From sequence record NC_105433.1: a stretch of 51,374 nucleotides of DNA. One strand, given 5' to 3'. The position numbers and the translations under genes are program-made. Position 1 is the first letter of the stretch; each line of letters starts with the position of its first letter. Of this stretch, positions 37,141 to 49,356 are shown piece by piece. Origin of the DNA: a phage. The notes under the pieces are model-generated. The model saw only the letters and a program-made list of their open reading frames with translations. It ran no database searches and had not been told where the DNA came from.

Positions 37141-37193
37141 GGCCGTAAATTTTAACGGCCCAATACTACCCCGTTTTGTCAAAAAGTGCTATT
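37141..37193 (-). promoter_or_regulatory. Box-type promoter cassette with consensus TTGACA and hairpin-enclosed -10
   Basis: Minus strand: aaatagcactttttgacaaaac, 22 nt, taaaat; the -10 lies in the loop of the ggccgt...acggcc stem. Confidence 0.5.
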
Positions 37194-37410
37194 TGATCCG
37201 CTCTATTGCAACCAGAAGTCGATCAGGCTGGCAGTCGCTGTAGCATTCTCCTGTAATCCCATCCTTAAACGTAAAGTAAAGCGCCTTATGATATGAAAAA
37301 CCAATCAGCCAACCTACCGCCGTTTTTTTGATGGGCCTGACTATATCGCCAGGCTTGAAAGTCTTTGTGGTAGAATGCGTTACTTTGTAACGGTTTTCAC
37401 TATTTATCAC
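37189..37410 (-). CDS. Hypothetical protein
   Basis: 73 aa; stop embedded in the box. Confidence 0.5.
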   Translation of the reverse strand: MINSENRYKVTHSTTKTFKPGDIVRPIKKTAVGWLIGFSYHKALYFTFKDGITGECYSDCQPDRLLVAIERIK

Positions 37411-37793
37411 AGATATTTGCCCTCAAACAGATAACAGCCGCCAGCAGAGAATCCGACCTCTTCACGGTACAGGTTCCAGCGGTCGCCGCACTCATCAAAA
37501 ACATAACCCGCAACGCTTCCAAGCGGTCGCCCTTTCTCGATCTGGTATCGCTTGCCCTGCTTAAAGTGCTTTTTGCACGGCATGTTATGATCTACAAACG
37601 TGCAAAGAACGGTTTTTGTGTTAATGGCGCGGTAATCATCTCGGTTTGCTGGAAGCCAGCGGCTACCCTTAACAAGCGTCTTAACCTGGAACTCCTCCAC
37701 CTCGATCACATCATCACTTCCTGCAATCTTCTGATAAACCGTTTTAAAACGGCCTTTCATCAATACGTTGGTTTCATTACAGATAACATTCAT
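37407..37793 (-). CDS. Hypothetical protein
   Basis: 128 aa; RBS aaggag; preceded by a box cassette. Confidence 0.55.
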   Translation of the reverse strand: MNVICNETNVLMKGRFKTVYQKIAGSDDVIEVEEFQVKTLVKGSRWLPANRDDYRAINTKTVLCTFVDHNMPCKKHFKQGKRYQIEKGRPLGSVAGYVFDECGDRWNLYREEVGFSAGGCYLFEGKYL

Positions 37794-37822
37794 GATCAGA
37801 TCTCCTTTGTTTGTTCGATGTG

Positions 37823-37868
37823 ATTATGCCAGGTTTTTACACCTGGCTTTTAACAAAAAGTGCTATTT
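37823..37868 (-). promoter_or_regulatory. Box-type promoter cassette (box, hairpin, CATAAT)
   Basis: Minus strand: aatagcactttttgttaaaa, hairpin ccaggtgtaaaaacctgg, cataat, then RBS aaggag. Confidence 0.5.
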
Positions 37869-38549
37869 TGAGTTTGACTCAAAGACGGCGCGAGCAAATC
37901 CGCGCGGAGTGAGGGAGCGTAGTTGCTTTGTTCTGGCAGACTTACCGCCTAAAAACTTCCAACCCCAAAAGAACATTACGCCCTCATCATTGGATAACGG
38001 CTTGCGTTCCGGTTCGGTAAATCCGTTGCCGCACCAGATAGCCGTCCTTTTAGTGTAGCCATCCTTTAGCGGCATTTTGGGGTGAAATGACCCATCGGAT
38101 TCGTCCAAGTAGTTACCAAAATCGCGCGGATTGAAATAAAAATCCGGCTTGCGCCATAGCGTTGATAGTCGGCCTACCGGATTCTCAGCCATCCAGGGAA
38201 CACCGAAATGATTTCCGACTTTTTCAACCATGATTGCATTTTGTAGCGCGATATGAATATCGTCTTCGCTGCGCACATGCTTACTTCCTGATTGTGCGAA
38301 CATGGTGCAGTCTGGAAAGCCAAATACAATATCAGGTTTTGGAATATCCATCTTAATGATGTTTTCAATGAAATTTTCATCAATCCACATATTCACATAA
38401 TGCAGATTTTCATGATTCATTTTGATGAAATATTCTCCGTGATTGCCTTCGTCAGCGTTAAAGCAATAGCATTGATAACCAGCCTTCGCATATTCAAGCA
38501 GCATGATTCCAGATCCATCAAACATTGAGTAAGCAACTTTATTTCCCAT
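37863..38549 (-). CDS. SAM-dependent methyltransferase-like protein (cytosine-C5 MTase-like motifs, tentative)
   Basis: Frame of ORF 37863..38609; probable start at internal Met (about 38549); motif I-like SMFDGSG, motif IV-like FGFPDCTMFAQSG, ENV-like MAENPVG. Confidence 0.4.
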   Translation of the reverse strand: MGNKVAYSMFDGSGIMLLEYAKAGYQCYCFNADEGNHGEYFIKMNHENLHYVNMWIDENFIENIIKMDIPKPDIVFGFPDCTMFAQSGSKHVRSEDDIHIALQNAIMVEKVGNHFGVPWMAENPVGRLSTLWRKPDFYFNPRDFGNYLDESDGSFHPKMPLKDGYTKRTAIWCGNGFTEPERKPLSNDEGVMFFWGWKFLGGKSARTKQLRSLTPRGFARAVFESNSK

Positions 38550-39066
38550 GATTTTTATGATACCCCAATTCATTCTCGGCTTTACGTTTTGCGGCAACAG
38601 CATCTCCAAAACTGGAAAAACAACCTATATAAATCCTACTTCCTCGCTTTCCGCCTCCAACCCTTACAACCCATTTGCCATGTTTATTTTTATGCACACC
38701 TAGTATGCCACTTGTATTGTTTTTCTGCTTTGATGTGTTTCGCATATTTCCTTTGTGATCTTTTAACTCAAAGTTTATTGCTCTGTTATCAGTCGTAATG
38801 TGATTTACGTGATCAACCTCCATTCCTTCCGGTATAGGCCCATAGTGCATTTCATAGCATATTCTATGAACTTTCAGGTTATAACGTTTTCCGTTTACAG
38901 TAAGTGCGGTTTCTAAATATCTGCCACCACTACCCAAAGAGCCAACCTCATTACCAGCATTGCAAGCATTCCATTGTTTAACTCTTGATGGGTGAATATC
39001 TTTTCTTTCTTTCCAGAACAGCTTTCCAGTTTCTGGATTGTATGTAAAGTAATCGTGCCAATTCAT
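38539..39066 (-). CDS. HNH homing endonuclease with AP2-type DNA-binding domain
   Basis: 175 aa; HNH motif VDHVNHITTDNR; C-terminal GILGVHKNKHGKWVVRV...GCFSSFGDAVAAKRKAE; overlaps the upstream end of the methyltransferase-like gene. Confidence 0.7.
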   Translation of the reverse strand: MNWHDYFTYNPETGKLFWKERKDIHPSRVKQWNACNAGNEVGSLGSGGRYLETALTVNGKRYNLKVHRICYEMHYGPIPEGMEVDHVNHITTDNRAINFELKDHKGNMRNTSKQKNNTSGILGVHKNKHGKWVVRVGGGKRGSRIYIGCFSSFGDAVAAKRKAENELGYHKNHGK

Positions 39067-39074
39067 TCATTACC

Positions 39075-39299
39075 TCAAAACGGAAAACAGCGCGCACAAC
39101 CAGGATCGAAATCGCATCCACAATCATTAACAATCATGGTGGGATCTGCAAATATTGCGCTTGATTCAAGATCCATATCCATATCACCTAAAGCCTCATC
39201 AAGAGTCTTAATTTTATATGCCACTTCAAGCGCCGACTCTTTATTTAGCCCGGCATCTTCTGCCATTTGAAGGCGCTCAAAAAAACCGTCCTGACTCAT
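39075..39299 (-). CDS. Hypothetical protein with Cys-rich C-terminus
   Basis: 74 aa; acidic; C-terminal CGCDFDPGCARCF. Confidence 0.45.
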   Translation of the reverse strand: MSQDGFFERLQMAEDAGLNKESALEVAYKIKTLDEALGDMDMDLESSAIFADPTMIVNDCGCDFDPGCARCFPF

Positions 39300-39412
39300 C
39301 GCATAACTTCCTTAATAACAGCCAAGATAATAGCCAGGCCAGCAGCAGTAACCAAAAATCCAGCCGCGCCAATAATCGAATAAAAAAAGAAATCAATAGC
39401 TTTATCTATCAT
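39296..39412 (-). CDS. Small membrane peptide (38 aa), absent from the ORF track
   Basis: RBS gaggtg; reads MIDKAIDFFFYSIIGAAGFLVTAAGLAIILAVIKEVMR; stop overlaps the downstream start (ATGA). Confidence 0.35.
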   Translation of the reverse strand: MIDKAIDFFFYSIIGAAGFLVTAAGLAIILAVIKEVMR

Positions 39413-39454
39413 TTTTCACCTCATTTAAAAGGCGGCAAAACGCCGCCAGATTAA

Positions 39455-39682
39455 TTAAAGAGCGCGCCAACTTTGAATATAGAAAGCGTTTTCTTCCAGT
39501 AATTCTTTTACCTGATCTTTATTGTATTTGCGCACCTTACCGCCTGGATGGATACCAATAAGATAGCCGCCTTTGCCCTCGGTGATAGTGATTTGGCTAA
39601 TTCCGCAGGACTTATCAAGTTTCACAGCCACGCGGTGATGAGCGTCAATAGTTGCCATAATGTTTAAAACTTTTGCTTTCAT
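39455..39682 (-). CDS. Hypothetical protein
   Basis: 75 aa ORF in the leftward block. Confidence 0.45.
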   Translation of the reverse strand: MKAKVLNIMATIDAHHRVAVKLDKSCGISQITITEGKGGYLIGIHPGGKVRKYNKDQVKELLEENAFYIQSWRAL

Positions 39683-39838
39683 TTAAATATCCTCAATTGA
39701 AATATGAATGACGTGGCGCTCTTTTTCCGTCGCCGCCGTAATGGTCATTTGCAACCGCCACCATCCAGGCATTTTTGAAAATAAATAGCCTCATTTCTTA
39801 TTTTCAGCTTAAATTTATGACCTTGAGCACCAGCGCCA

Positions 39839-40120
39839 TTATGCGATCCCAGTTACGTTAAAACTTACAGCCTTTGTTGCGCTAAATACATAAGCATCAA
39901 CAGCGCCGCCAAATACACGAATTTTACCCTGGCCGTACTGCGCATTCATATTTCGCCAAACCGTTCTATTAGAGCAGAATGCGCTACCAGTCTTAATGAG
40001 CGTATCCATCTCTTTTCTTAGATCGCGATAGTCCAGCCAGAATCTAAAGGCACGCTGTTTAATTCGCGCCGCCTTGATTTTTTCTCTTGCGCTATTGAAA
40101 TCATTCTTTTCGTATGCCAT
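39839..40120 (-). CDS. Hypothetical protein
   Basis: 93 aa; abuts the upstream 82-aa gene. Confidence 0.45.
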   Translation of the reverse strand: MAYEKNDFNSAREKIKAARIKQRAFRFWLDYRDLRKEMDTLIKTGSAFCSNRTVWRNMNAQYGQGKIRVFGGAVDAYVFSATKAVSFNVTGIA

Positions 40121-40368
40121 TAAATGATCTCCATGTATGTTTCAAAGCCATTTAACTTGAACAGGCCGTTTTCACATTTGCGCACGTTCCAAGTTAGCCC
40201 TGAGTGGTACGCTTCCATATCATCAAGGTCAATGGTGATTTCAGCACCTTTCTTAAACAAACCTTTTTCGTGAGACTTGTCGCGCTTAACAACTTTAACA
40301 TCAACCTGATTTTCCATCTTTAAATCCTCGCTTGTTGTCGATGGGTGTAATATACCATTCAGGCGCAC
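40120..40368 (-). CDS. Hypothetical protein
   Basis: 82 aa; preceded by a box and the conserved leader element. Confidence 0.5.
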   Translation of the reverse strand: MRLNGILHPSTTSEDLKMENQVDVKVVKRDKSHEKGLFKKGAEITIDLDDMEAYHSGLTWNVRKCENGLFKLNGFETYMEII

Positions 40369-40373
40369 ATCGT

Positions 40374-40393
40374 TTTTAACAAAAAGTGCTATT
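40374..40393 (-). promoter_or_regulatory. Box copy overlapping the stop of 40389..40730
   Basis: Plus strand ttttaacaaaaagtgctatt; downstream leader shares tattacacccatcgacaac with two other leaders. Confidence 0.45.
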
Positions 40394-40679
40394 CAACGAC
40401 TTTTCCAGTTAAAGAGATAAGTTGCCTTGTAATCTTGTGGCGGCGATACTTACGCGCAACAACAGGAAGGCTTTCACCGCTTTGATGACCAAAGCAGATC
40501 GGCAATTCACCTTCAAGGGAGCGGAAGCCACCAAATTCAAGATCCCGCACTGGCTTCGTGCGCCAGGCTTCAATAAATCCTCGCTCGTCACGAGTGATAT
40601 AGCGGTATATATTTGGGAGGGGCAATTGTATCCCCTCAAAATCCACTGTGTCGGTGTAGCTGTAAAACTTAGAACTCAT
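40389..40679 (-). CDS. Hypothetical protein
   Basis: Frame of ORF 40389..40730; internal ATG at 40679 has RBS ggag and avoids a long overlap with the upstream small ORF. Confidence 0.45.
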   Translation of the reverse strand: MSSKFYSYTDTVDFEGIQLPLPNIYRYITRDERGFIEAWRTKPVRDLEFGGFRSLEGELPICFGHQSGESLPVVARKYRRHKITRQLISLTGKVVE

Positions 40680-40821
40680 AGTCAACAACTCCAAACTCGT
40701 TAACGATTTGCGCCTTGTAGAATCCGCCATTTTTCGCCAGGTTGTAACAAGCGGCTACGGTTTCAAATTCGCGCGCTTCCGGCTGGCTGTTTTCGTGTTC
40801 CCAGGTAATCAGAGTAACCAT
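40669..40821 (-). CDS. Small hypothetical protein (50 aa), absent from the ORF track
   Basis: RBS gagga; reads MVTLITWEHENSQPEAREFETVAACYNLAKNGGFYKAQIVNEFGVVDYEF. Confidence 0.4.
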   Translation of the reverse strand: MVTLITWEHENSQPEAREFETVAACYNLAKNGGFYKAQIVNEFGVVDYEF

Positions 40822-40898
40822 TTTCAAATCCTCGCATTCGTTGTCGATGCGTGTAATGTACAGGAATGCGAGGATTGAGTTTTAACAAAAAGTGCTAT
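40822..40898 (-). promoter_or_regulatory. Box cassette with 10-bp perfect stem (cctcgcattc / gaatgcgagg) sequestering the RBS
   Basis: Minus strand: aatagcactttttgttaaaac, stem cctcgcattc, loop with tacattacacgcatcgacaac, stem gaatgcgagg, then ATG. Confidence 0.45.
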
Positions 40899-41162
40899 TT
40901 AGTCCAGGAATTCGATTTCACGCTCTCCAGTTAACGGATCTACAAGCCAGAATCCGAGCGGTTCGCCGTGAACACCGCCATAGAATCCAAGCGCTGTCAG
41001 ATCTTCACCTTTAACGAATACCAGGTTTCCGCTACGGCTTACGTGAGACACGTTAACGATAACCGGAAATGTGCGATCCTTAAATGCGGGCCGCAGGGCG
41101 TAACATCCGTTATTGAGCAAACGTGCTTTGCGCTTAACTGGAATAGGTGCATTAATTTTCAT
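40899..41162 (-). CDS. Hypothetical protein
   Basis: 87 aa; strong RBS aaggag; stop within the box. Confidence 0.5.
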   Translation of the reverse strand: MKINAPIPVKRKARLLNNGCYALRPAFKDRTFPVIVNVSHVSRSGNLVFVKGEDLTALGFYGGVHGEPLGFWLVDPLTGEREIEFLD

Positions 41163-41174
41163 GGTTATTACTCC

Positions 41175-41387
41175 TTATCGTAAAGATTTAAAGACGTATA
41201 GTTTATTGCGGTAACTATATATCCGCATTGTTATTTCTCGCAGTGCAATATATTCCTTCCTGTTTTCCGGCAGACTGGCGAGCAACAACAGGCAGTATTT
41301 ATAAGCGCGGTCAAGATTCCTTTCCGTGCCCCTGCAATATCCCTTGTTGCGCTTGGAGCGGTACAGCCATAACAATTTCTTGAACAT
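41175..41387 (-). CDS. Possible small basic protein (doubtful)
   Basis: About 70 aa from the internal Met of ORF 41175..41573; Lys/Arg/Tyr-rich and low complexity. Confidence 0.2.
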   Translation of the reverse strand: MFKKLLWLYRSKRNKGYCRGTERNLDRAYKYCLLLLASLPENRKEYIALREITMRIYSYRNKLYVFKSLR

Positions 41388-41388
41388 T

Positions 41389-41598
41389 TCAGATACGCCC
41401 ATACAGATCACAGACTTCGTTGATAAAACAGCGTTGAGACTCTTTATCATGCTTCTCAAACATCGCACGGCATTCGTAGCGGTGATTATGCACGATGACA
41501 ACAACCATATTTTCAGGCGCTGACGGGTGACGCGCGGAAGCGTCGCAGATTGAAACATCCATACCCATCTCATGTGCTTTCTTGATCACATCCAACAT
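41389..41598 (-). CDS. Hypothetical protein, paralogue of 41586..41852
   Basis: Frame of ORF 41389..41622; ATG at 41598 has RBS aggag; C-terminus CFINEVCDLYGRI matches DFINDVCLL of the upstream gene. Confidence 0.45.
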   Translation of the reverse strand: MLDVIKKAHEMGMDVSICDASARHPSAPENMVVVIVHNHRYECRAMFEKHDKESQRCFINEVCDLYGRI

Positions 41599-41852
41599 TT
41601 TTTCTTCTCCTGCAATAAGCAAACATCATTGATAAAATCAGCACGGCCCTTAATGTTGCTGATGTGGAACGTCTTTTCAGCGTACAGGCCATCACCTTCA
41701 ATCACGATCATTACGCGAGTCGGTTTATTCACGGGCGCACACGAAAAGAGTGGTCGCGCCGGAAGAAATTTAGTAGCCACATCCAGGTTAGCCCTGGCGG
41801 CCCTGCAAAATGCCTCCGCCAGATCCAAATCATTTTCGGTAATCACCGCCAT
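41586..41852 (-). CDS. Hypothetical protein
   Basis: 88 aa; ATGA overlap with the upstream gene. Confidence 0.45.
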   Translation of the reverse strand: MAVITENDLDLAEAFCRAARANLDVATKFLPARPLFSCAPVNKPTRVMIVIEGDGLYAEKTFHISNIKGRADFINDVCLLQEKKKCWM

Positions 41853-42124
41853 TACTTCTTAATCTCCTCACTGATAAATTTCAGCACCTGACGCAAGAAA
41901 ACCTCGTTGTTGATAGTCGCTGGCAATTCTTCCTTCACTTCTTGCGGCAGATAGATATTGCCGTGCCAGGTCAAGCAATCGTAGTTGATACGATAAGAGC
42001 AAAGCCACTCGCAATCGTTATCTGCTTCCCAAATGCAGAGTTGCAGAACATCGCCAAAATCTTCAACAGTCAGATCCAGACCGTGACGCTTAGCGAAATT
42101 GAAAGTGGTTTTGCTGATGTTCAT
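41852..42124 (-). CDS. Hypothetical protein, first gene of the leftward block
   Basis: 90 aa; Cys/Trp-containing; preceded by a box cassette. Confidence 0.5.
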   Translation of the reverse strand: MNISKTTFNFAKRHGLDLTVEDFGDVLQLCIWEADNDCEWLCSYRINYDCLTWHGNIYLPQEVKEELPATINNEVFLRQVLKFISEEIKK

Positions 42125-42204
42125 TGCTATCTCCTGAGCGGTTCGTTTCGATGTGTGTAATGTACCCGATCAGACGGCCTGAGTTTTAACAAAAAGTGCT
42201 ATTT
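42125..42204 (-). promoter_or_regulatory. Box-type promoter cassette for the leftward block
   Basis: Minus strand: aaatagcactttttgttaaaac followed by leader gggtacattacacacatcgaaacgaaccgctcaggag and ATG. Confidence 0.45.
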
Positions 42205-42479
42205 GACGGTTAGCGCCAGGATTGTGATCGAAATAATCAGAAGTAATCATTCGTAATCAAATCACGTCAAAATGATGATTGCCTTTGCAAATTTGATGAG
42301 AAAAGCAATCACGTTTAATCATTGGTTGCAGGGGAGATAGTGAAACCCTCCCCTCTTGCCTCACTTTTCCGCCTGGCTGTCAGTGGTTGTTGTCTTTTGT
42401 TCACCCCTGTTACCGATTTCAGGCGGCGTGTTTCCGCGCGGTTTTCCGGTGTAGCGAAAACGGAAAAAACAAAGAAAAT

Positions 42480-42690
42480 CCTCTATAATACATTGAAAAT
42501 AAAGATTATTTATTTATATATATCTATAATGTTTTCTTTTTGTTCTCACTGTTACAGTGCTTTTTGTTGGGTGTGGTGTGGTTGTGTGTTGGTATATATG
42601 GATAGTTGCGCGCGCGGCGGATTGCATATGTATATATACTTTTTCCGGCGGATTGCGTTAACAGCGTGAACAGAAAAATAACAGCCCTGA
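42480..42690 (+). repeat. Noncoding block B, homologous to block A at 21420..21615
   Basis: Ordered sub-blocks: attatttatttat AT-rich run, G/T-rich run (ttgggtgtggtgtggttgtgtgttgg), then gcatatgtatatatac...ccggcgg...aacagaaaaataaca. Confidence 0.6.
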
Positions 42691-42757
42691 AATCAACAAC
42701 TTGCGCATGATTTTGTAGTTTTTCGATATTGGTAACGTTTTGAATACAACAAAAACA

Positions 42758-43541: not shown

Positions 43542-43581
43542 CACTTTTTGTTAAAACGCCAGGCGCAAAGCCTGGCATAAT
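43537..43581 (+). promoter_or_regulatory. Box-type promoter cassette (box, perfect hairpin, CATAAT)
   Basis: aatagcactttttgttaaaac over the TAG stop; hairpin gccaggc-gcaaa-gcctggc; cataat 22 nt after ttgtta. Confidence 0.5.
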
Positions 43582-43799: not shown

Positions 43800-43814
43800 T
43801 TAGCAGGTGAATAA

Positions 43815-44000: not shown

Positions 44001-44044
44001 ATAGCACTTTTTGTTAAAACTCAAAAACGATAACCAGGCATAAT
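44000..44044 (+). promoter_or_regulatory. Box-type promoter cassette (no clear hairpin)
   Basis: aatagcactttttgttaaaac, 22 nt, cataat; RBS aggag before the ATG at 44100. Confidence 0.45.
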
Positions 44045-44099
44045 AAATCACATAGGGCGGCACGGCGTCGCCCAGTTAAACCAATCAGGAGAAAGCACC

Positions 44100-44993
44100 A
44101 TGTTAAAACTTGCTGACATTAAATTCCCGATCACTTTCGAATCTCGTGGCATTGGTCATTACATTTTTACCGATGAAAAAACATGCCATAAGGTTGATAT
44201 GAACAGCGACAAACTAAGTCCATCAACAATGGAGATTGAACACTTTATTGATGCGCACAATACGCACCACAACGCACTTAAAGACTATGGCTATGCAATG
44301 CCAGGCTACACATGCTTGCACTACAAGCCATATAAGGGCCAGGTGTTACCAGTGCGCTCACCGGAACGCGCAGAGATTCCGATGGTCAATATTAAAACCT
44401 GCGACTACAAAAAGCTGTGGTGCTTAAGTCTGGACAATATCAAGTATCCGATCACGTTCCACACGACTGGTAAGTCAACGATTCGCTACACATCTCGCGA
44501 CAATGGCGTTTATAGCGATGGTACGAAATCAGAGTTGAAAGTTAATTTCTTTGTAAATGGTCACAACAAATTCAATCCGCACAACGAAGAGGATAAAGTG
44601 TATTACGTGGAAGACATTACAAAACACTTGTTTGGAGAAACTCCATTCGGCGGCGGGAAGACGGCAATTCAGAAAATCATTGACGAGGAGATCCATAAAG
44701 CGGCTGTCGAAATGAAAGCGCCTGGAGGCTGGCGTATTGACAAGAGCGCATTTGCCTATCAAGAAATCGTAACGCAGGGAGCGATTGAAGATATGCCAGT
44801 TACAGCCACGCTAAAAGGAGTCCGGCTTGATGACGGCACATGGTATGAGTTAACGGCTACACCAAAGACGATCGAAATTCATGATGATGTTGTTATCCTT
44901 CTGCTTCACTACGGCGGCACTAAAAACCGGACTGTTGCAGGTGAGATCAGCATCAAGCGCGGAACGATGGTTAAGTGGAAGGTGAAGATTTGA
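44100..44993 (+). CDS. Hypothetical protein with internal tandem duplication
   Basis: 297 aa; LADIKFPITFESRGIGHYIFTDEK and LDNIKYPITFHTTGKSTIRYTSRD are repeated N-terminal modules. Confidence 0.55.
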   Translation: MLKLADIKFPITFESRGIGHYIFTDEKTCHKVDMNSDKLSPSTMEIEHFIDAHNTHHNALKDYGYAMPGYTCLHYKPYKGQVLPVRSPERAEIPMVNIKTCDYKKLWCLSLDNIKYPITFHTTGKSTIRYTSRDNGVYSDGTKSELKVNFFVNGHNKFNPHNEEDKVYYVEDITKHLFGETPFGGGKTAIQKIIDEEIHKAAVEMKAPGGWRIDKSAFAYQEIVTQGAIEDMPVTATLKGVRLDDGTWYELTATPKTIEIHDDVVILLLHYGGTKNRTVAGEISIKRGTMVKWKVKI

Positions 44994-45070
44994 GTTTGTT
45001 CACTGCGGCGCACGTCGCCGCATGGATAGGATTGTTTGCCTACCTGTTTAGCTTTTATTGAGGTGAGAGA

Positions 45071-45222
45071 TGGCTACCTGGATTTTGCTGATTCTTATGA
45101 TTGATGGCGGCGTTGACCATATCGAAATGAATAGCCAGCAATCTTGCATTGAGGCACGAGAGCAGATCAAGAACAACAACAGGTTTTATGCGTACACTCA
45201 CACGCTATGTATTAAGAAATAG
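45071..45222 (+). CDS. Small hypothetical protein (50 aa), absent from the ORF track
   Basis: RBS gaggtg; reads MATWILLILMIDGGVDHIEMNSQQSCIEAREQIKNNNRFYAYTHTLCIKK; TAG stop at 45220-45222 inside the box. Confidence 0.4.
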
Positions 45223-45261
45223 CACGAATTGTTAAAACTCAAATGTGGGGCCAGGTATAAT
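45218..45261 (+). promoter_or_regulatory. Box-type promoter cassette (variant box, TATAAT in a short stem-loop)
   Basis: aatagcacgaattgttaaaac, 21 nt, tataat flanked by ggcc...ggcc. Confidence 0.45.
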
Positions 45262-45291
45262 GGCCTCACTTTCAACGAGAGGGGAAACACG

Positions 45292-45519
45292 ATGGAAAGT
45301 TTAATCATCCAGAAGAAAATGAAGTGCGTCAGTGTAGCGCCAGGTTGCGGATTTATGTTCACAGTGGGGCATATCTACTCCGCGCAGAAGATGAGAACAT
45401 CAACCGGATCGTTTTACGTCAATAACAATCAAGGATACCGCATGTTCCTGAACGGTCAAAACGGCAACGAAATTTGCGCTTACGCAGACATTATCGCAAC
45501 CTTTGAGGAAGTGAAATAA
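45292..45519 (+). CDS. Small protein, tandem paralogue A
   Basis: Frame of ORF 45229..45519; ATG at 45292 with RBS gagagggg; shares G(Y)(R/K)(M/F)(F/Y)LNG(Q/N)NG(N/T)EI...FE(E/Q) with the next gene. Confidence 0.5.
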   Translation: MESLIIQKKMKCVSVAPGCGFMFTVGHIYSAQKMRTSTGSFYVNNNQGYRMFLNGQNGNEICAYADIIATFEEVK

Positions 45520-45764
45520 TGATCATCGAAAACAACTTTCTTTGCGTTAAGAGCAATCGACCATTCTTCACGCCTGGCAAGGTGTACCAGGGCAAGAAGG
45601 ACACAAGAGATGGTCACTCTTATCATGTTCACTGCAACAACGGATACAAGTTTTACCTCAACGGTAATAATGGAACTGAGATTGTTGCGTTTGAAAACGT
45701 AATTGCCGAGTTCGAGCAGATTACAGACGCGGAATTTGAGGAAGTGAAAGATGAAAACAAATAA
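45519..45764 (+). CDS. Small protein, tandem paralogue B
   Basis: 81 aa; ATGA overlap with paralogue A. Confidence 0.5.
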   Translation: MIIENNFLCVKSNRPFFTPGKVYQGKKDTRDGHSYHVHCNNGYKFYLNGNNGTEIVAFENVIAEFEQITDAEFEEVKDENK

Positions 45765-45972
45765 GCGCGTCAAGCACAGGTTTACTGATAACCACGGCGA
45801 CGCGATTGATGTATACAAGTTCGGCGATCGCGTGTTTATTGATGGCACGTTTGAAGGTGGTCGTAGGCCGGATTTTAGGTCGATACTTACCGTTGACCAA
45901 GTGCGCAAGCTGGCAGATAAGTTAAATGATCTGGCAGATGAAATAGAATACAAGCAAATCCATTTTAATTGA
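45751..45972 (+). CDS. Hypothetical protein
   Basis: 73 aa; overlaps the upstream gene end. Confidence 0.45.
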   Translation: MKTNKRVKHRFTDNHGDAIDVYKFGDRVFIDGTFEGGRRPDFRSILTVDQVRKLADKLNDLADEIEYKQIHFN

Positions 45973-45983
45973 TAGGTTTGATA

Positions 45984-46697
45984 ATGAAAAAATACACTTT
46001 CGAACTGTGGGGCAAGAAGTACGAATTAATCACCAGCAAGCCGATTGTTATCGTTGACCTGGACGGCACACTATCGGACGGATCGCATCGTTTGCATTTG
46101 CTGCCAACTGAAAACTTGCACCTTACGGAATCGTGGCGCGAGTTTAACAGGGCCGCCGCCGGAGATTCACCGATTAAAAGCACTATCGCGGTTATTAACG
46201 GTTTATGGGTGTCGGGATTTGCCATCGTCATCTTGACCGGACGCAGCGACGAGGTTCGCTATGAAACCTGCAAATGGTTGAATGAGAACGGCGTGAAGTT
46301 TGACGAAATCATCATGCGCCGCCAGGAGGACAACCGAAAGGATACGGTTATTAAAGAAGAAGCCTTGCGCGCTATTGGCCTGGACAACATTGTTTGCGCC
46401 TTTGACGATTCGCCGAACGTGGTTAAGCACTTCCGCAGCTTGGGGATCACAACCTATCAGGTCACGGAATACGACAAGCCACACGCTCACATACAATCTC
46501 ACGGCGTGGAATCAATCAAGATCACGAAGCGCGCCCGATTCGTCGGCAGCAAAGACAGCCTGGTCAATGCCAGCTTTATCAAAGGCAAGGTTTATGATGT
46601 TCATAGCCATGATAAAAACAGATTCTTTTTGTGGGATGAAAAAGGTTTTGGCTGGTGCTTTGAACACGACGACGGCGATTTTGTTAATGCGGAATAG
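45984..46697 (+). CDS. HAD-superfamily phosphatase (nucleotidase or Pnk-phosphatase-like, putative)
   Basis: Frame of ORF 45969..46697; ATG at 45984; HAD motif I VIVDLDGTLSDG; stop embedded in the box. Confidence 0.5.
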   Translation: MKKYTFELWGKKYELITSKPIVIVDLDGTLSDGSHRLHLLPTENLHLTESWREFNRAAAGDSPIKSTIAVINGLWVSGFAIVILTGRSDEVRYETCKWLNENGVKFDEIIMRRQEDNRKDTVIKEEALRAIGLDNIVCAFDDSPNVVKHFRSLGITTYQVTEYDKPHAHIQSHGVESIKITKRARFVGSKDSLVNASFIKGKVYDVHSHDKNRFFLWDEKGFGWCFEHDDGDFVNAE

Positions 46698-46743
46698 CAC
46701 TTTTTGTTAAAACAGATTGTCGGGCTTGCGGTATAGTAAGCCC
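46693..46743 (+). promoter_or_regulatory. Box-type promoter cassette with hairpin-enclosed TATAGT
   Basis: aatagcactttttgttaaaac, 22 nt, tatagt in the loop of gggctt...aagccc. Confidence 0.5.
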
Positions 46744-46768
46744 ATCAACAACAAACGAGGATTAAATC

Positions 46769-47032
46769 ATGGCTAACAAGATCGAGTTTTTTAAAGCGGT
46801 AGACATTATTGATGGCGCGCCTAGCTTCTTTGCCATCCATTCTATTGACGGCAAGGATATTGGGTACAACGTTATCCGTCGAGATGGAATCTCAAAACTT
46901 AGTGACCTGGTAGGCCATATTGTGTCAAACGGGAAATGCGCATGGCCCGATTCGCCACGAGAGCCACGCCGCCGCGACATGGTAGAGCCTGTTCTGCTTT
47001 ACACTCTGGTAGTAGAAGGAGAAAATAAATGA
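46769..47032 (+). CDS. Hypothetical protein
   Basis: 87 aa; RBS gagg. Confidence 0.5.
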   Translation: MANKIEFFKAVDIIDGAPSFFAIHSIDGKDIGYNVIRRDGISKLSDLVGHIVSNGKCAWPDSPREPRRRDMVEPVLLYTLVVEGENK

Positions 47033-47214
47033 TTTGGTTACTTGCTTTTTTGGTTGTTTTTCTTTACATTTCAGGCTTGTTTACGTTCCGCGCGTTGGTG
47101 AAATATTCTGACACGACAGACAAAGACGATAAAATCGTTCTCGCTTTCTGGTTTGTTTGGGTGTGGTTAGCAATTTACGAGATCATCAGAGACAAACAGA
47201 AATTTGAGTGGTGA
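47029..47214 (+). CDS. Small membrane protein (two predicted transmembrane segments)
   Basis: 61 aa; ATGA overlap; hydrophobic segments LLAFLVVFLYISGLF and IVLAFWFVWVWLAIY. Confidence 0.5.
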   Translation: MIWLLAFLVVFLYISGLFTFRALVKYSDTTDKDDKIVLAFWFVWVWLAIYEIIRDKQKFEW

Positions 47215-47222
47215 TTCTTGCT

Positions 47223-47252
47223 ATGGCGCATTCATGCAGTGCGCCATTTTGA
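47223..47252 (+). terminator. Hairpin plus short T-run
   Basis: tggcgca-ttcatgcag-tgcgcca followed by tttt. Confidence 0.4.
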
Positions 47253-47270
47253 GAAAACCTAAAGGGGGAA

Positions 47271-47423
47271 ATGATGCGTAACTTTGAAAAAATCATTACC
47301 AAAAAGAAGCGTCGCGGGTACGATGAGCATGTGGAGCTTGTGAAAAAGCAACGCAAGAAGCGCAACGAAGACAAGAAGCGTGGGAAAAAATTTAATGCGA
47401 TTTTTCGCTATGGAGATCATTAA
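47271..47423 (+). CDS. Small highly basic protein (50 aa), absent from the ORF track
   Basis: RBS aaaggggg; reads MMRNFEKIITKKKRRGYDEHVELVKKQRKKRNEDKKRGKKFNAIFRYGDH; stop overlaps the kinase start region. Confidence 0.35.
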   Translation: MMRNFEKIITKKKRRGYDEHVELVKKQRKKRNEDKKRGKKFNAIFRYGDH

Positions 47424-47425
47424 TC

Positions 47426-48016
47426 ATGAAACGAGACATTATCATCCTTAATGGGCCGCCAGGTTGCGGGAAGGACACTATTGCAGCTTACCTAACGGGC
47501 CATCGTTACCCTGCTGTCAAGGCGTCATTCAAACAGCCGATGTTCGATATTGCTTTTTCTATGCTGGGCGTGTACCGATACGATGAATTTATGGACCTGT
47601 ACAACGACCGAGAGCAAAAAGAAAAGCCTCAAGTTATCTTGGGCGGCAAGTCACCTCGACAATTCATGATCTGGATTAGCGAGGATGTAATGAAGCCAGT
47701 TTTTGGGGATCACTATTTCGGGCGTCGAATGGTTGAAGAGATTCACGAGATGTACCGAGATTTGGCGGTTGTGATCAGTGATGGCGGATTCCCCGAAGAA
47801 ATCAAGCCGCTGGTTAAGGCAGGGCATGAAGTGCATATTTGCCGATTGCATCGCGACGGCTTCACGTTTGCTGGCGATTCGAGAGACTACATTGACCTGA
47901 GCGGTTATCACTATCGAATCCATCACTATGATTTCCACTTGCAGGACGGTAAGCCGGAACTGGCTGTAAACGAGATCGTCAATGCTGTCAAATGGAAGCA
48001 CACACAGATTAAATAG
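47426..48016 (+). CDS. P-loop nucleotide kinase (dNMP kinase-like, putative)
   Basis: 196 aa; Walker A GPPGCGKDT at residues 10-18. Confidence 0.55.
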   Translation: MKRDIIILNGPPGCGKDTIAAYLTGHRYPAVKASFKQPMFDIAFSMLGVYRYDEFMDLYNDREQKEKPQVILGGKSPRQFMIWISEDVMKPVFGDHYFGRRMVEEIHEMYRDLAVVISDGGFPEEIKPLVKAGHEVHICRLHRDGFTFAGDSRDYIDLSGYHYRIHHYDFHLQDGKPELAVNEIVNAVKWKHTQIK

Positions 48017-48056
48017 CACGAATTGCTAAACGCGGGGCGCAATGCCTCGCTATAAT
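48012..48056 (+). promoter_or_regulatory. Box-type promoter cassette (variant box, hairpin, TATAAT)
   Basis: aatagcacgaattgctaaac, 22 nt including gcgggg...cctcgc, then tataat; RBS gagagg; ATG at 48087. Confidence 0.5.
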
Positions 48057-48086
48057 GCAAACACCAATCAACGAGAGGAAATCACA

Positions 48087-48467
48087 ATGGTTAACATCAG
48101 AAAAATCCGCGTCGGCACTAAATTCTTAGTTACTTACGCAATTCCAGATAGCGGAATGAAGAAGGGCCAGATTGTTAAGGTTGATAGCAAAAGATTCGGA
48201 ATCCCTGGTATCAATGGCTATCTAATCAATAGAGATCTTGGATTCGACGGCTTCGCTATCCGTGCGCTTGAGGGTATTGTTGCCACTCTTAAACGAATCA
48301 CTAATCATCGCGGCTGCCCAATCAAGACGATTAAAGCGCCAATAAATTACGGCAAACTGGATAATCGTCGAATCCGCCGCCTGGCGCGTAACGCGTTAAA
48401 ATTCCGTGGCGTAGGCGATGATTTCTACTATGGATACAAGAGGATTGCGCGCAATGCTGGGAAATAA
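48087..48467 (+). CDS. Hypothetical basic protein
   Basis: Frame of ORF 48042..48467; ATG at 48087 with RBS gagagg; about 126 aa. Confidence 0.5.
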   Translation: MVNIRKIRVGTKFLVTYAIPDSGMKKGQIVKVDSKRFGIPGINGYLINRDLGFDGFAIRALEGIVATLKRITNHRGCPIKTIKAPINYGKLDNRRIRRLARNALKFRGVGDDFYYGYKRIARNAGK

Positions 48468-48566
48468 CAATAACGCAACGAATCCTAAGCCACCTTTTGA
48501 TTTTCATTCCGCAATGATTGCGGTATTATCAATGCTACTTTTTCTTTATAGCATGAGGGCGCTACT

Positions 48567-48815
48567 ATGGTTTTTAACGCATTGAAACGACTGTTTAAGC
48601 CGGAATACCGGATCGTATTTTGCCGCGACTGTTCTACTTATCATGTGCAGCGACGCAGCTTAGGCGGCAATTGGCACTATGTTACAGACGACTTTTTCGG
48701 CATCATTGCCACTGAATTTAAGTATTACAGTGATGCTTATATGTACGTGAAGAAGCGCCACCGCTTACGCAAGTGTCGTTTTTCCGTGCTGATTCACGTT
48801 AATGATTGTTACTGA
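48567..48815 (+). CDS. Hypothetical Cys-containing protein (possible zinc binding)
   Basis: 82 aa; CRDCSTYH motif and further Cys residues; RBS gaggg. Confidence 0.45.
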   Translation: MVFNALKRLFKPEYRIVFCRDCSTYHVQRRSLGGNWHYVTDDFFGIIATEFKYYSDAYMYVKKRHRLRKCRFSVLIHVNDCY

Positions 48816-48822
48816 GGTGAAA

Positions 48823-49005
48823 ATGAAAACTGGTATTATTATTCTTTTCCTGATCCTTTTCGGTAGCCATTTAACCATTAACTATGAGGGCATTATGGCC
48901 TTTTGGGGCAACTTGATGGTTTTTGCCGCTGGTTCAATTACTGGCTACTCTGACGGGAAAAAGGACGGCGTTCGCAAGATGCTGATGGGACTTAAACAAA
49001 AATAA
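48823..49005 (+). CDS. Small membrane protein
   Basis: Frame of ORF 48802..49005; ATG at 48823 with RBS gaggtg; two hydrophobic segments. Confidence 0.45.
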   Translation: MKTGIIILFLILFGSHLTINYEGIMAFWGNLMVFAAGSITGYSDGKKDGVRKMLMGLKQK

Positions 49006-49016
49006 GGGGATCTGAA

Positions 49017-49307
49017 ATGGCAAACAAAACTTACCGCAAACTACTGGTTAACGCTTTTGAAAACATCGCGCAGTGTAACAAGTGGAACGACTCTAAACAC
49101 TCGCCAGTCACAATGAAGCGGGCCGGATTCAAAAATGCTCGTTCATGGGCGCGAGCTTTCGCAGCTTGCTATATGCCGGATGGTGGACTAGGAGCGATGA
49201 ATGATTTTTTGATCAACATGATAGAGGAAGCTGCGCGAGAGGATCGACCGCTGACACAGCGAGATTTTGACGACTTCGCGCGCGATGAGCTTTACTATCT
49301 GAGCTAA
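49017..49307 (+). CDS. Hypothetical protein
   Basis: 96 aa; RBS aagggga; stop embedded in the box. Confidence 0.5.
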   Translation: MANKTYRKLLVNAFENIAQCNKWNDSKHSPVTMKRAGFKNARSWARAFAACYMPDGGLGAMNDFLINMIEEAAREDRPLTQRDFDDFARDELYYLS

Positions 49308-49356
49308 TAGCACTTTTTGTTAAAACTTCCGCAAGGGCATTTGATAAAGTGCCCTT
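49306..49356 (+). promoter_or_regulatory. Box-type promoter cassette with hairpin-enclosed -10-like hexamer
   Basis: aatagcactttttgttaaaac, then perfect stem aagggca / tgccctt with loop tttgataaag (taaagt 22 nt after ttgtta). Confidence 0.45.

What the first reader, a model, noticed from the sequence alone, without database searches (positions are those of the whole stretch)
37141..49356. Perfect hairpins inside the box cassettes, several enclosing the -10 hexamer or the RBS
Most cassettes carry a 5-10 bp inverted repeat between the box and the -10 (gccaggc/gcctggc at 43558; ccaggt/acctgg at 37829). In others the -10-like hexamer sits in the loop (gggctt-gcggTATAGTa-aagccc at 46722; aagggca-tttgaTAAAGT-gccctt at 49333; ggccgt-aaATTTTA-acggcc at 37141; ggttgg-tgaTATAATtcg-ccaacc at 22838). 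At 40822-40878 a 10-bp perfect stem pairs the RBS region. None is followed by a T-run, so they are not intrinsic terminators. Possibilities include cruciform or single-strand promoter structures, RNase III or E processing sites, or operators for a translational repressor.
Basis: seen in the sequence. Interest (0 to 1): 0.6.

Follow-up and report, generated by a model that had tools for sequence, protein, structure and literature searches.

The report
RNA hairpins nested inside phage promoters
In this T1-like coliphage most of the repeated promoter cassettes between early genes carry a short GC-rich hairpin that evolution keeps paired on the mRNA strand and that ends at or before the predicted transcription start, so it can only form in RNA reading through from the gene before; this is a compact variant of known promoter-plus-stem-loop cassettes, not a new kind of element.

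Summary
The window is a T1-like (Drexlerviridae) coliphage. Its published 21-nt repeat (aaATAGCACnnnTTGnTAAAA) lies exactly 19 nt upstream of an extended -10-like promoter core. Ten of 15 cassettes in the window fold far better than shuffles (summed z = -9.1). Among 224 non-redundant cassettes from about 80 related phage contigs, 45.5% have a perfect stem of 6 bp or more, against 5.1% of shuffles. Stem sequences differ completely between orthologues but stay complementary. Mismatches inside stems are G:T 56 times and A:C 8 times on the gene strand. That is the signature of an RNA (G·U) helix on the sense strand, and it argues against cruciforms and antisense terminators. The 3' arms end either at -13/-12 or at -1/+1. 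The promoter's own transcript therefore lacks the hairpin and only read-through RNA has it. No T-run follows, unlike this phage's late-gene terminators. Hairpins are commoner (82% vs 48%) where an upstream gene's stop codon lies in the box. Best reading: a 3'-UTR stem-loop of the upstream message, acting as decay barrier or weak attenuator, squeezed into the sequence-free parts of the next promoter. The 13-bp stem that pairs the ribosome-binding site at 40827-40876 is real but lineage-specific. Closest known: PeSL cassettes of T4-like phages.

The parts
43558..43576 (+). Class A hairpin GCCAGGC-gcaaa-GCCTGGC filling the spacer of cassette 43537 (box 43537-43556; -10 CATAAT 43576-43581; predicted start about 43588).
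   Evidence: (MFE -15.7, p=0.002).
37828..37847 (-). Class A hairpin GCCAGGT-gtaaaa-ACCTGGC of cassette 37867 (box 37867-37848; -10 CATAAT 37828-37823).
   Evidence: (z=-5.2). Orthologous cassettes carry different complementary stems (comp 7).
30719..30738 (+). Class A hairpin TGGCGCGA-tgga-TTGCGCCA (one G·U) of cassette 30698 (box 30698-30717; -10 CATAAT 30737-30742). The orthologous T1 hairpin is annotated as a rho-independent terminator.
31790..31808 (+). Class A hairpin GCCCGGC-ctagt-GTCGGGC (one G·U) of cassette 31769 (box 31769-31788; -10 31808-31813).
34992..35010 (-). Class A hairpin GCCCGGC-ctagt-GTCGGGT of cassette 35031 (box 35031-12; -10 TATATT 34992-34987). It has the same spacer as cassette 31769 on the other strand. 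It is the only cassette hairpin that passes the terminator scan (tail ATATTTGTTT).
48032..48050 (+). Class A hairpin GCGGGGC-gcaat-GCCTCGC (one G·U) of cassette 48012 (GAA-type box 48012-48031; -10 TATAAT 48051-48056).
   Evidence: (comp 19).
37139..37162 (-). Class B hairpin TGGGCCGT-taaaattt-ACGGCCCA. The loop holds the -10 TAAAAT (37154-37149). It belongs to cassette 37193, upstream of the helicase gene. The 3' arm ends 2 nt before the SD sequence AAGGAG.
   Evidence: (z=-3.4). Eleven or more orthologues carry unrelated but complementary stems.
45245..45269 (+). Class B hairpin GTGGGGCCA-ggtataa-TGGCCTCAC (one G·U) around the -10 TATAAT (45256-45261), cassette 45218.
   Evidence: (z=-4.6).
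46722..46743 (+). Class B hairpin GGGCTTGC-ggtata-GTAAGCCC around the -10 TATAGT (46732-46737), cassette 46693. The 3' arm ends at -1 and the predicted start is A46744 of ATCAACAAC.
   Evidence: (z=-4.7).
49333..49356 (+). Class B hairpin AAGGGCATTT-gata-AAGTGCCCTT around the -10 TAAAGT (49345-49350), cassette 49306. The T1 homologues read AAGGCCA/TGGCCTT and AAGGTCA/TGGCCTT, which are a compensatory change and a G·U intermediate.
40827..40876 (-). Long-range 13-bp stem AATCCTCGCATTC (40876-40864, in the spacer) with GAATGCGAGGATT (40839-40827, containing the SD sequence GAGGA). The 24-nt loop holds the -10 TACATT (40860-40855) and the predicted start. The start codon is ATG 40821-40819.
   Evidence: Close relatives keep the stem through C>U and A>G changes that give G·U pairs. 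As a class this pairing is not enriched.
22840..22865 (+). Hairpin TGGTTGGTGA-tataat-TCGCCAACCA downstream of a degenerate box (AAATAGCTAAAC). It lies outside the finding's range but has the same class B design.
44055..44073 (+). Hairpin GGGCGGC-acggc-GTCGCCC in the leader of cassette 44000. The spacer of this cassette has no hairpin, and this hairpin lies downstream of the predicted start.
   Evidence: (comp 17).
40350..40393 (-). Cassette 40393 (box 40393-40374): no significant local hairpin (MFE -5.3, p=0.45).
42159..42203 (-). Cassette 42203 (box 42203-42184), the first cassette of the leftward arm with no gene upstream. It has no local hairpin, and most of its 18 orthologue variants also lack one.
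   Evidence: (comp 10).

Best explanation
Each cassette is an intergenic module read on the gene strand.

Layout of the cassette:
- The 20-nt box, which usually contains the stop codon of the gene before.
- A 19-nt free spacer.
- An extended -10-type promoter core (G at -14, then TAnnnT).
- A 6-nt free discriminator.
- A conserved leader starting CA|TCGAAAC, then the SD sequence and ATG.

The hairpin:
- It is an RNA structure of the sense strand whose arms sit in the only sequence-free positions of that promoter.
- In class A both arms lie in the spacer and the hairpin ends at -13/-12.
- In class B one arm lies in the spacer and the other in the discriminator. The -10 is in the loop and the hairpin ends at -1.
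- Because the 5' arm is always upstream of the start site, RNA initiated at the cassette never contains the hairpin. Only RNA arriving from the upstream gene does.

Proposed function (inferred): the hairpin is the 3'-UTR stem-loop of the upstream message. It acts as a barrier to 3'-5' exonucleases and/or a weak attenuator without a U-tract. It delimits and stabilises the upstream cistron's RNA and keeps neighbouring, individually promoted small genes insulated. In one lineage (40827-40876) the same upstream arm instead pairs with the ribosome-binding site. That would silence translation of the downstream gene on read-through RNA only.

Shown: non-random hairpins, covariation, sense-strand specificity, position relative to the promoter core, absence of a U-tract.

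Inferred: that the cassette is an active promoter with its start at the conserved CA, and the decay-barrier/attenuator function.
For: Real and conserved:
- Summed MFE z = -9.1 in the window.
- Stems of 6 bp or more in 45.5% of 224 non-redundant cassettes, against 5.1% of shuffles.
- Orthologous cassettes have unrelated but complementary stems.
- In a same-register set, 8 of 9 pairs change on both sides. The covariation score is 0.724 against 0.285 in shuffles (0 of 500 reach it) and 0.07-0.24 for slid partners.

Sense-strand RNA:
- Isolated mismatches in stems are G:T 56 vs A:C 8 (p=6e-10). In cluster representatives they are 34 vs 7, and composition-matched shuffles give 106:156.
- Both classes show the bias (9:0 and 47:8), as do this family's canonical terminators (15:4).
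- 14 of 23 class A tetraloops are GNRA.

Promoter core and start site:
- The hexamer lies exactly 19 nt after the box in 522 of 644 unique cassettes.
- G at -14 in 83%, C at -1 in 78% and A at +1 in 79% of cassettes.

Position of the arms:
- The 3' arm ends are bimodal, at offsets 19-22 and at 31-32 (offset 31 alone: 40 of 159).

Link to the upstream gene:
- Hairpins occur in 82% of cassettes whose box carries the stop codon of a co-directional ORF, against 48% of the others (odds ratio 4.8, p=2e-9).
- The stop codon is the TAG of aTAGcac in 261 of 361 such cassettes.
- The first cassette of the leftward arm and most of its orthologues lack a hairpin.

Context:
- Almost every late-gene junction of the same phage carries a canonical hairpin plus T-run right after the stop codon.
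- The T1 GenBank record annotates four box-associated hairpins as terminators.
Against: - There is no experimental start-site, 3'-end or decay data for any T1-like phage in the searchable literature. Promoter activity of the cassettes and the start position are therefore inferred from sequence only.
- The published TLS analysis leaves the box function open: stoperator, enhancer site or UP-like element.
- Without a U-tract, termination is not expected from E. coli RNA polymerase. A decay-barrier role is a default explanation rather than a tested one.
- About 29% of cassettes lack a hairpin of 6 bp or more, so the hairpin is dispensable at many junctions.
- The contrast between cassettes with and without an upstream ORF is not corrected for phylogenetic relatedness.
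- G:T tolerance also fits a hairpin of the non-template DNA strand alone.
Confidence: 0.55

Rival explanations
1. The hairpins are weak or factor-assisted intrinsic terminators. They would stop upstream transcription inside the next promoter, giving 'transcriptons' as proposed for T1, with the AT-rich -10 and leader standing in for the U-tract.
For: - The T1 record annotates box-cassette hairpins at 38973-39001, 39998-40024 and 41980-42007 as rho-independent terminators. It also annotates a box plus hairpin plus T-run at 35930-35971.
- Cassette hairpin 35010-34992 passes the terminator scan.
- The stems are GC-rich with GNRA loops, as in terminators.
- Some relatives have a true T-run after a hairpin that encloses the hexamer.
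Against: - T content after the stem is 3.2 of 8 in class A and 1.1 of 8 in class B.
- T content of the -10 and the following 10 nt is no higher in hairpin-bearing cassettes than in hairpin-less ones.
- The same phage's late terminators have 5-8 of 8 T.
- Class B hairpins are followed by ATCGAAAC.
Confidence: 0.2
2. The hairpins are RNase E-type processing modules. The AU-rich box RNA (UUUUUGUUAAAA) would be cut, and the adjacent hairpin would become a protective 5' stem-loop for the downstream message, or mark a cleavage that separates the cistrons.
For: - The sense-strand RNA signature.
- An AU-rich single-stranded segment lies next to a stable stem in every class A cassette.
- From general knowledge, RNase E prefers AU-rich single strands next to stem-loops.
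Against: - In class B the hairpin lies 7-10 nt from the box.
- Nothing in the sequence distinguishes 5' protection from 3' protection.
- The association with an upstream ORF fits either reading.
Confidence: 0.15
3. The structure acts at the DNA level, as a cruciform or as a non-template-strand hairpin that presents the -10 in a loop. It would tune promoter opening or compensate for the over-long 19-bp spacer.
For: - The arms flank the -10 with great positional precision.
- The spacer between the TTAAAA end of the box and the -10 is 19 bp, which is long for sigma-70.
- G:T is also tolerated in DNA hairpins on the non-template strand.
Against: - A cruciform needs both strands, so G:T and A:C should be equally disfavoured. 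The observed ratio is 56:8.
- Loops of 6-12 nt with 6-9 bp stems are poor cruciforms.
- In class A the -10 lies outside the hairpin. In many class B cases the last three -10 bases, including T-7, are paired.
- Hairpin frequency depends on an upstream ORF, which a promoter-intrinsic role does not predict.
Confidence: 0.05
4. The hairpins are binding sites for a phage protein: an RNase III substrate, a translational repressor operator, or a nut-like boxA/boxB antitermination site.
For: The arrangement of a conserved linear box followed by a hairpin with a GNRA-like loop superficially resembles lambda nut.
Against: - Stem and loop sequences differ between cassettes of one genome. There are 177 distinct helices, and loop lengths range from 3 to 14 nt.
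- The stems are far shorter than RNase III substrates.
- There is no Rfam match.
- The fixed 19-nt distance is to a -10 hexamer, not to the hairpin.
Confidence: 0.05

Closest known systems
PeSLs (promoter-early stem-loops), composite promoter-terminator cassettes of T4-like myoviruses (PMC2839356, PMC4122927)
   Same: - Short repeated intergenic cassettes that combine a host-type promoter with a GC-rich stem-loop.
- They are concentrated among small, variable early genes.
- The same cassette core is found in different gene contexts, consistent with recombination between cassettes (PeSL description).
   Different: - In PeSLs the stem-loop lies beside the promoter and was shown to terminate. Here it is interleaved with the promoter, with arms in the spacer and discriminator.
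- Here there is no U-tract, and termination is untested.
- The promoter has an upstream 20-nt box and an extended -10 rather than a consensus -35/-10.
- There is no sequence homology, and mini-circles were not examined.
The 21-nt direct repeat of T1-like phages (aaATAGCACnnnTTGnTAAAA; TLS reannotation PMC11447400) and the T1 'transcripton' model
   Same: - The box is this repeat: same consensus, same orientation with transcription, and the same distance of about 76 nt to the start codon.
- Four box-associated hairpins are annotated as terminators in the T1 record.
   Different: - The published descriptions treat the repeat alone and leave its function open.
- The fixed -10 partner, the hairpin classes, their covariation and their strand specificity are not described in the papers I could search.
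Intrinsic (Rho-independent) terminators
   Same: - A GC-rich stem of 6-10 bp with frequent GNRA tetraloops, placed shortly after a stop codon.
- The same G·U bias as true terminators of this phage family.
   Different: There is no U-tract.
Intercistronic or 3'-terminal stabiliser stem-loops, such as REP-type stabilisers and the stem-loops to which Rho-terminated transcripts are trimmed (general knowledge, not tested here)
   Same: A stable hairpin without a U-tract directly downstream of a coding region.
   Different: - Here the hairpin is embedded in the next gene's promoter.
- Stabilisation has not been measured.
Hairpin promoters of phage N4 virion RNA polymerase
   Same: A short hairpin at a phage early promoter.
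   Different: - N4 promoters need a conserved 5-7 bp stem with a 3-nt loop on the template strand and a phage-encoded polymerase.
- T1-like phages encode no RNA polymerase or sigma factor.
- Here the loops are 3-14 nt, the sequences vary, and the sense strand is the one selected.

Membership tests
T1-like 21-nt direct repeat cassette | Consensus aaATAGCACnnnTTGnTAAAA in the direction of transcription | tested here: met
   Fifteen good copies in the window, all co-oriented with the downstream gene. Consensus as published.
T1-like 21-nt direct repeat cassette | About 76 nt upstream of the start codon, in an intergenic position | tested here: met
   The start codon lies 53-65 nt after the 19-nt core for most window cassettes. 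The stop codon of the upstream gene lies inside the box in 361 of 504 unique cassettes.
Sigma-70 extended -10 promoter | TAnnnT hexamer with a TG/G at -15/-14 and a purine start about 7 nt downstream | tested here: met
   The hexamer lies exactly 19 nt after the box in 522 of 644 cassettes. G at -14 in 83%, T at -15 in 38%, C at -1 in 78%, A at +1 in 79%. Activity was not tested.
Sigma-70 extended -10 promoter | Transcription initiation demonstrated | not testable with these tools
   No start-site data found for any T1-like phage.
Intrinsic terminator | GC-rich stem-loop shortly after a stop codon | tested here: met
Intrinsic terminator | U-rich tract (about 5 or more U in 8 nt) directly after the stem | tested here: not met
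   Mean T count after the stem is 3.2 of 8 (class A) and 1.1 of 8 (class B). T content of the -10 and following 10 nt is no higher than in hairpin-less cassettes. Window cassettes have 0-4 T against 5-8 for the late terminators. Only 35010-34992 passes the scan.
PeSL (T4-like promoter-early stem-loop) | Repeated cassette joining a host-type early promoter and a stable stem-loop, flanking small variable ORFs | tested here: met
   PeSL definition.
PeSL (T4-like promoter-early stem-loop) | The stem-loop is a separate element next to the promoter and terminates transcription | tested here: not met
   The arms lie within -31..-1 of the promoter. There is no U-tract. Termination was not assayed.
PeSL (T4-like promoter-early stem-loop) | Cassettes mediate modular shuffling of the flanking genes | tested here: inconclusive
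   Near-identical spacers occur with different upstream and downstream genes: 93 spacer groups with both flanks different, 64 with only the upstream flank different, 54 with only the downstream flank different. Breakpoints and mini-circles were not examined.
N4-type hairpin promoter | Conserved 5-7 bp stem with a 3-nt loop, recognised by a phage-encoded RNA polymerase | tested here: not met
   Loops are 3-14 nt and mostly 4-6 nt, and sequences vary. No polymerase or sigma gene has been reported in T1-like genomes.
RNase III processing site | About 20 bp of double-stranded RNA | tested here: not met
   The local stems are 6-10 bp. The 13-bp stem at 40827-40876 is the longest.
Known RNA family (Rfam 15) | Match at gathering score | tested here: not met
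   No matches in the whole window.

The most novel reading that the evidence does not exclude
The hairpins may be a transcript-origin tag. They are encoded upstream of the start site but downstream of the previous stop codon. That makes RNA that enters a cassette from upstream structurally different from RNA born at the cassette. The phage could then give the two RNA populations different fates: decay boundary, attenuation, or RBS occlusion as at 40827-40876. Each small early gene's expression would follow its own promoter despite dense co-directional packing and the absence of real terminators. This would be a general design principle of promoter-embedded post-transcriptional insulators.
Probability: 0.3. 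Interest if true: 0.65.

Novelty: new variant of a known kind. Interest (0 to 1): 0.45.

Why it matters
T1-like phages (Drexlerviridae) are among the commonest coliphages and Klebsiella phages, and they are used for therapy. Their transcription programme is essentially unmapped, and the function of their signature repeat is still open.

This analysis shows three things:
- The repeat is the upstream half of an extended -10 promoter.
- A covarying RNA hairpin specific to the sense strand is threaded through the free positions of that promoter.
- The hairpin ends at the predicted start site.

Together these give a concrete, testable model of how dozens of tiny early genes are individually promoted and insulated. 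The work also supplies about 180 natural promoter-with-hairpin variants that could serve as compact insulator parts. Finally, it warns annotators that the 'terminators' called in these cassettes lack U-tracts.

Tried and rejected
- **Antisense terminator.** On the opposite strand the class A hairpins are followed by TTTTAAC, the box complement. I rejected this because the G:T vs A:C asymmetry points to the gene strand, and the scan finds none on that strand.
- **Selection for a U-tract after class A hairpins, with TATTAT-type hexamers as surrogate.** T content does not differ from hairpin-less cassettes.
- **Global column-by-column covariation over all 224 cassettes.** The signal is diluted because the hairpin register floats by a few nucleotides. 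RNAalifold on an ungapped orthologue alignment was compromised for the same reason, although 6 of 11 pairs still showed double changes. I used register-matched sets instead.
- **General spacer:SD pairing (RBS occlusion) as a third class.** It is not enriched over shuffles.
- **Link between hairpin class and box subtype (TTT, GAA, AAA).** None found.
- **Linkage of the hairpin to the upstream versus the downstream gene.** The two are about equal (213 vs 237 pairs), so this test is uninformative.
- **Literature search for T1-like start-site, 3'-end or RNA-seq data.** Nothing usable.
- **A 2026 preprint on promoter-terminator coupling.** It surfaced but could not be opened.
- **Terminator features under two related records.** Uninformative.
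- **Rfam.** No match.

Full report
**What the window is.** The region 36000-50000 is 96-97% identical to Escherichia phages vB_EcoS-95, tonijn, tonnikala and relatives. More distant matches reach T1-like phages of Shigella, Klebsiella and Salmonella. It is a Drexlerviridae (T1-like) genome.
- Late genes lie on the + strand up to about 20 kb.
- Two divergent arms of small early genes start from an AT-rich region at 42200-42780.
- That region carries a perfect sigma-70 promoter, TTGACA-16-TATAAT, at 42758-42785.

**The cassette.** I searched for the repeated box and extracted it in gene orientation. That gives 15 good copies of AATAGCACTTTTTGTTAAAA, with GAA variants at 45218 and 48012. Each is followed by:
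- a 19-nt variable, GC-rich spacer;
- a hexamer of the TAnnnT type;
- about 6 variable nucleotides;
- a conserved leader, (C)ATCGAAAC-like;
- an SD sequence and a start codon.

The box is already published. The 2024 TLS reannotation describes a 21-nt direct repeat aaATAGCACnnnTTGnTAAAA in 18 intergenic places. It points in the direction of transcription, lies about 76 nt before start codons, and is also present in T1, Rtp and Rogue1. Its function is left open: stoperator, enhancer site or UP-like element. That paper does not mention hairpins.

- The stem at 40822-40878 is longer than stated. It has 13 perfect pairs, 40876-40864 with 40839-40827.
- I folded the 40 nt after each box and compared with 1000 dinucleotide shuffles. 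Ten of 15 cassettes have p<0.05. The summed energy is -163 kcal/mol against -87 +/- 8.3, z = -9.1.
- Cassettes 40393, 42203 and 21327 have no significant local hairpin. Cassette 44000 has one only further downstream, in its leader.

**Comparative data.** I collected T1 itself. I also collected IMG/VR contigs through the box pattern and through the polynucleotide-kinase-like protein of the early region.
- These loci hold 912 box instances, of which 644 are unique.
- 522 of the unique cassettes have an xAxxxT hexamer exactly 19 nt after the box.
- Clustering leaves 224 representatives that differ at more than 6 of 40 positions.
- Perfect stems of 6, 7 and 8 bp or more occur in 45.5%, 29.9% and 12.9% of them. 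Shuffles that keep the hexamer fixed give 5.1%, 1.3% and 0.3%.
- With internal G·U allowed, 159 of 224 (71%) have a stem of 6 bp or more.

**Covariation.** I grouped cassettes by the protein encoded downstream. Orthologous junctions turn out to have stems of unrelated sequence that remain complementary.
- Upstream of the helicase gene (window 37139-37162) the 5' arms read TGGGCCGT, GTTGCCG, GGTTGACC, GGTTGGCC, TGACGGTG, GGGCGGGG and TGGTGCGG. Each has its matching 3' arm.
- The hairpin at 49333-49356 (AAGGGCA/TGCCCTT) has T1 homologues AAGGCCA/TGGCCTT and AAGGTCA/TGGCCTT. These are a double change and a G·U intermediate.
- RNAalifold on an ungapped orthologue alignment is blurred by 1-nt register shifts, but it still shows double changes in 6 of 11 pairs.
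- In 24 class B cassettes of one register, 8 of 9 pairs change on both sides and 96.3% of cells are paired. The covariation score is 0.724, against 0.285 in shuffles (0 of 500 reach it) and 0.07-0.24 for slid partners. These sequences were chosen because they fold in that register, so the unbiased significance test is the comparison with shuffles.

**Which strand, and DNA or RNA?** I called helices in a way that treats every isolated internal mismatch alike.
- The mismatches are G:T 56 times and A:C 8 times on the gene strand (binomial p = 6e-10).
- Among cluster representatives they are 34 vs 7, while composition-matched shuffles give 106:156.
- Class A gives 9:0 and class B gives 47:8. The canonical T-run terminators of the same phages give 15:4.
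- Within the window's own hairpins I count eight G·T pairs and no A:C mismatch.
- 14 of 23 four-nucleotide loops in class A are GNRA, where about 1 would be expected by chance.

This is the signature of an RNA helix on the sense strand. It argues against an antisense terminator, even though on the other strand the class A hairpins are followed by TTTTAAC. It also argues against a cruciform, in which a G:T on one strand is an A:C on the other.

**Position relative to the promoter.**
- The stacked cassettes show G at offset 18 (= -14) in 83%, and T at -15 in 38%.
- The hexamer has A at its second position and T at its sixth by selection.
- C and A occupy offsets 31 and 32 in 78% and 79%. This is an extended -10 core with a pyrimidine-purine start 7 nt after the hexamer.
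- The TTAAAA end of the box is a poor -35 at 19 bp.
- The 3' ends of the hairpins are sharply bimodal. One peak is at offsets 19-22, at the first base of the hexamer (class A, 50 representatives). The other is at offsets 31-32, that is -1/+1 (class B, 88 representatives, 40 of them exactly at 31).
- The arms therefore occupy precisely the two stretches of the promoter that are free to vary, the spacer and the discriminator. The constrained hexamer sits after the stem or in the loop.
- In many class B cassettes the last three hexamer bases are part of the stem.

It follows (inference) that RNA initiated at the cassette lacks the 5' arm and cannot form the hairpin. Only RNA coming from upstream can.

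**Relation to the upstream gene.**
- In 361 of 504 unique cassettes an open reading frame runs into the box. In 261 of these the stop codon is the TAG of aTAGcac.
- Cassettes of this kind have a stem of 6 bp or more in 82% of cases, against 48% of those without such an ORF. The odds ratio is 4.8 and Fisher p = 2e-9, not corrected for relatedness.
- The first cassette of the leftward arm (42203) has nothing upstream. It and most of its 18 orthologue variants lack a local hairpin.

**Terminator or not?**
- After the stem, T content is 3.2 of 8 in class A and 1.1 of 8 in class B. Class B hairpins are followed by ATCGAAAC.
- T content of the -10 and the following 10 nt is no higher in hairpin-bearing cassettes than in hairpin-less ones.
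- In the same window nearly every late-gene junction carries a hairpin with 5-8 T of 8 right after the stop codon. Examples follow the genes ending at 5917, 7812, 10463, 11197, 14271, 16403, 23799 and 24295. The cassette hairpins have 0-4 T.
- The T1 GenBank record nevertheless annotates three cassette hairpins, and one box-plus-hairpin with a true T-run, as rho-independent terminators.
- One window hairpin (35010-34992) passes the loose scan.

I conclude that the cassette hairpins are at most weak attenuators.

**The stem that pairs the RBS.**
- The 13-bp stem at 40827-40876 joins the spacer to GAATGCGAGGATT, which contains the SD sequence. The hexamer and the predicted start lie in the 24-nt loop.
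- Close relatives keep the stem. Their differences lie in the 5' arm and are C>U and A>G changes that give G·U pairs.
- Orthologous junctions in other phages carry an ordinary class A or class B hairpin instead.
- As a class, spacer:SD pairing of 7 bp or more is no more common than in shuffles, 16% vs 11%.

It is therefore a lineage-specific variant. On the model above it would block translation of the downstream ORF on read-through RNA only.

**Cassette mobility.** Near-identical spacers (2 or fewer differences) occur with both flanks the same (1000 pairs), both different (907), only the downstream gene shared (237) and only the upstream gene shared (213). In the window, cassettes 31769 (+) and 35031 (-) share one spacer. 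Cassette cores are thus reused at different junctions, as described for PeSLs of T4-like phages. I did not map breakpoints.

**Mechanism I commit to.** The hairpin is the 3'-UTR stem-loop of the upstream cistron, written into the free positions of the next promoter. It acts on read-through RNA as an exonuclease barrier and/or a weak attenuator.
- Confidence in the RNA-level, read-through-only part is high, about 0.85.
- Confidence in the specific function is moderate, about 0.55 overall.

Rivals:
- Weak terminator: 0.2.
- RNase E module with 5' protection: 0.15.
- DNA-level promoter structure: 0.05.
- Protein-binding site or RNase III substrate: 0.05.

No Rfam family matches the window. T1-like phages encode no RNA polymerase or sigma factor, which excludes an N4-type hairpin promoter.

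**Novelty.**
- Already known: the box, the labelling of a few of the hairpins as terminators, and composite promoter/stem-loop cassettes in T4-like phages.
- Not found in the searchable literature: the interleaved geometry, the two positional classes that end at -13 and at -1, the family-wide covariation, and the sense-strand signature.

I rate it a new variant of a known kind, of moderate interest.

Noticed in passing
window 42200-42790: Divergent AT-rich region between the two early arms. It contains many short repeats (tatata runs, GGTGTGG repeats) and a perfect sigma-70 promoter TTGACA-16-TATAAT at 42758-42785. This is the only consensus promoter in 34.5-51.4 kb and is probably the immediate-early promoter or origin region.
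   Followed up: partly
window 5917-24330 (for example after the genes ending at 5917, 7812, 10463, 11197, 14271, 16403, 23799, 24295): Almost every late-gene junction carries a canonical hairpin plus T-run directly after the stop codon and directly before the next RBS, with no promoter between. Late transcription must read through a dozen terminators. That suggests leaky terminators or an unidentified antitermination mechanism.
   Followed up: partly
window 20060-20090 and 24295-24330: Two convergent gene pairs share one palindromic hairpin flanked by A- and T-runs (AAAGGGGGCgtgGCCCCCTTT; GCCCCGCatatGCGGGGC). These look like bidirectional terminators.
   Followed up: no
all cassettes; for example window 43538-43540, 46694-46696, 48013-48015: The stop codon of the upstream gene is the TAG inside the box (aTAGcac) in 261 of 361 cassettes preceded by an ORF. 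Gene end and next promoter overlap by design.
   Followed up: yes
window 31769-31813 (+) and 35031-34987 (-): Two cassettes on opposite strands share an almost identical spacer and hairpin (gcccggcctagtgtcggg) but have different leaders and genes. This suggests copying or conversion between cassettes.
   Followed up: partly
window 2150-2215: A variant box (AATAGCACTAATTGCTAAAA) is followed after 5 nt by TATAAT. Next comes a canonical terminator (AAGGCTGGAttttTCCAGCCTT plus TTTTAT), just before the portal-like gene. The geometry differs from the early cassettes.
   Followed up: no
window 27722-28198 (-): A 158-aa ORF at the position of the T1 gene annotated as 'transcriptional regulator' (ST23). 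It has sub-threshold Pfam hits to Cro/YdaS-type helix-turn-helix domains (E = 1e-6 and 7e-4). It is a candidate box-binding factor.
   Followed up: partly
window 45000-45030 and 47222-47250: GC-rich hairpins without a box also follow stop codons in the early region (TGCGGCGcacgtCGCCGCA; ATGGCGCATTcatgcAGTGCGCCAT). Post-gene hairpins are therefore a general habit of this genome, not a property of the box.
   Followed up: partly
related loci (for example T1 L001 35930-35995): In some relatives a box is followed by a long hairpin that encloses a -10-like hexamer and ends in a true T-run (GACGCGTAG...CTACGCGTTTTTTATTTT). This is a genuine terminator wrapped around the promoter core, upstream of the primase gene.
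   Followed up: partly
one search hit list: Twenty records named 'Campylobacter phage' (for example MG065657 C4) match this coliphage at about 83% identity over much of the early region. That is odd for a T1-like enterobacterial phage and may reflect contamination or mislabelling.
   Followed up: no
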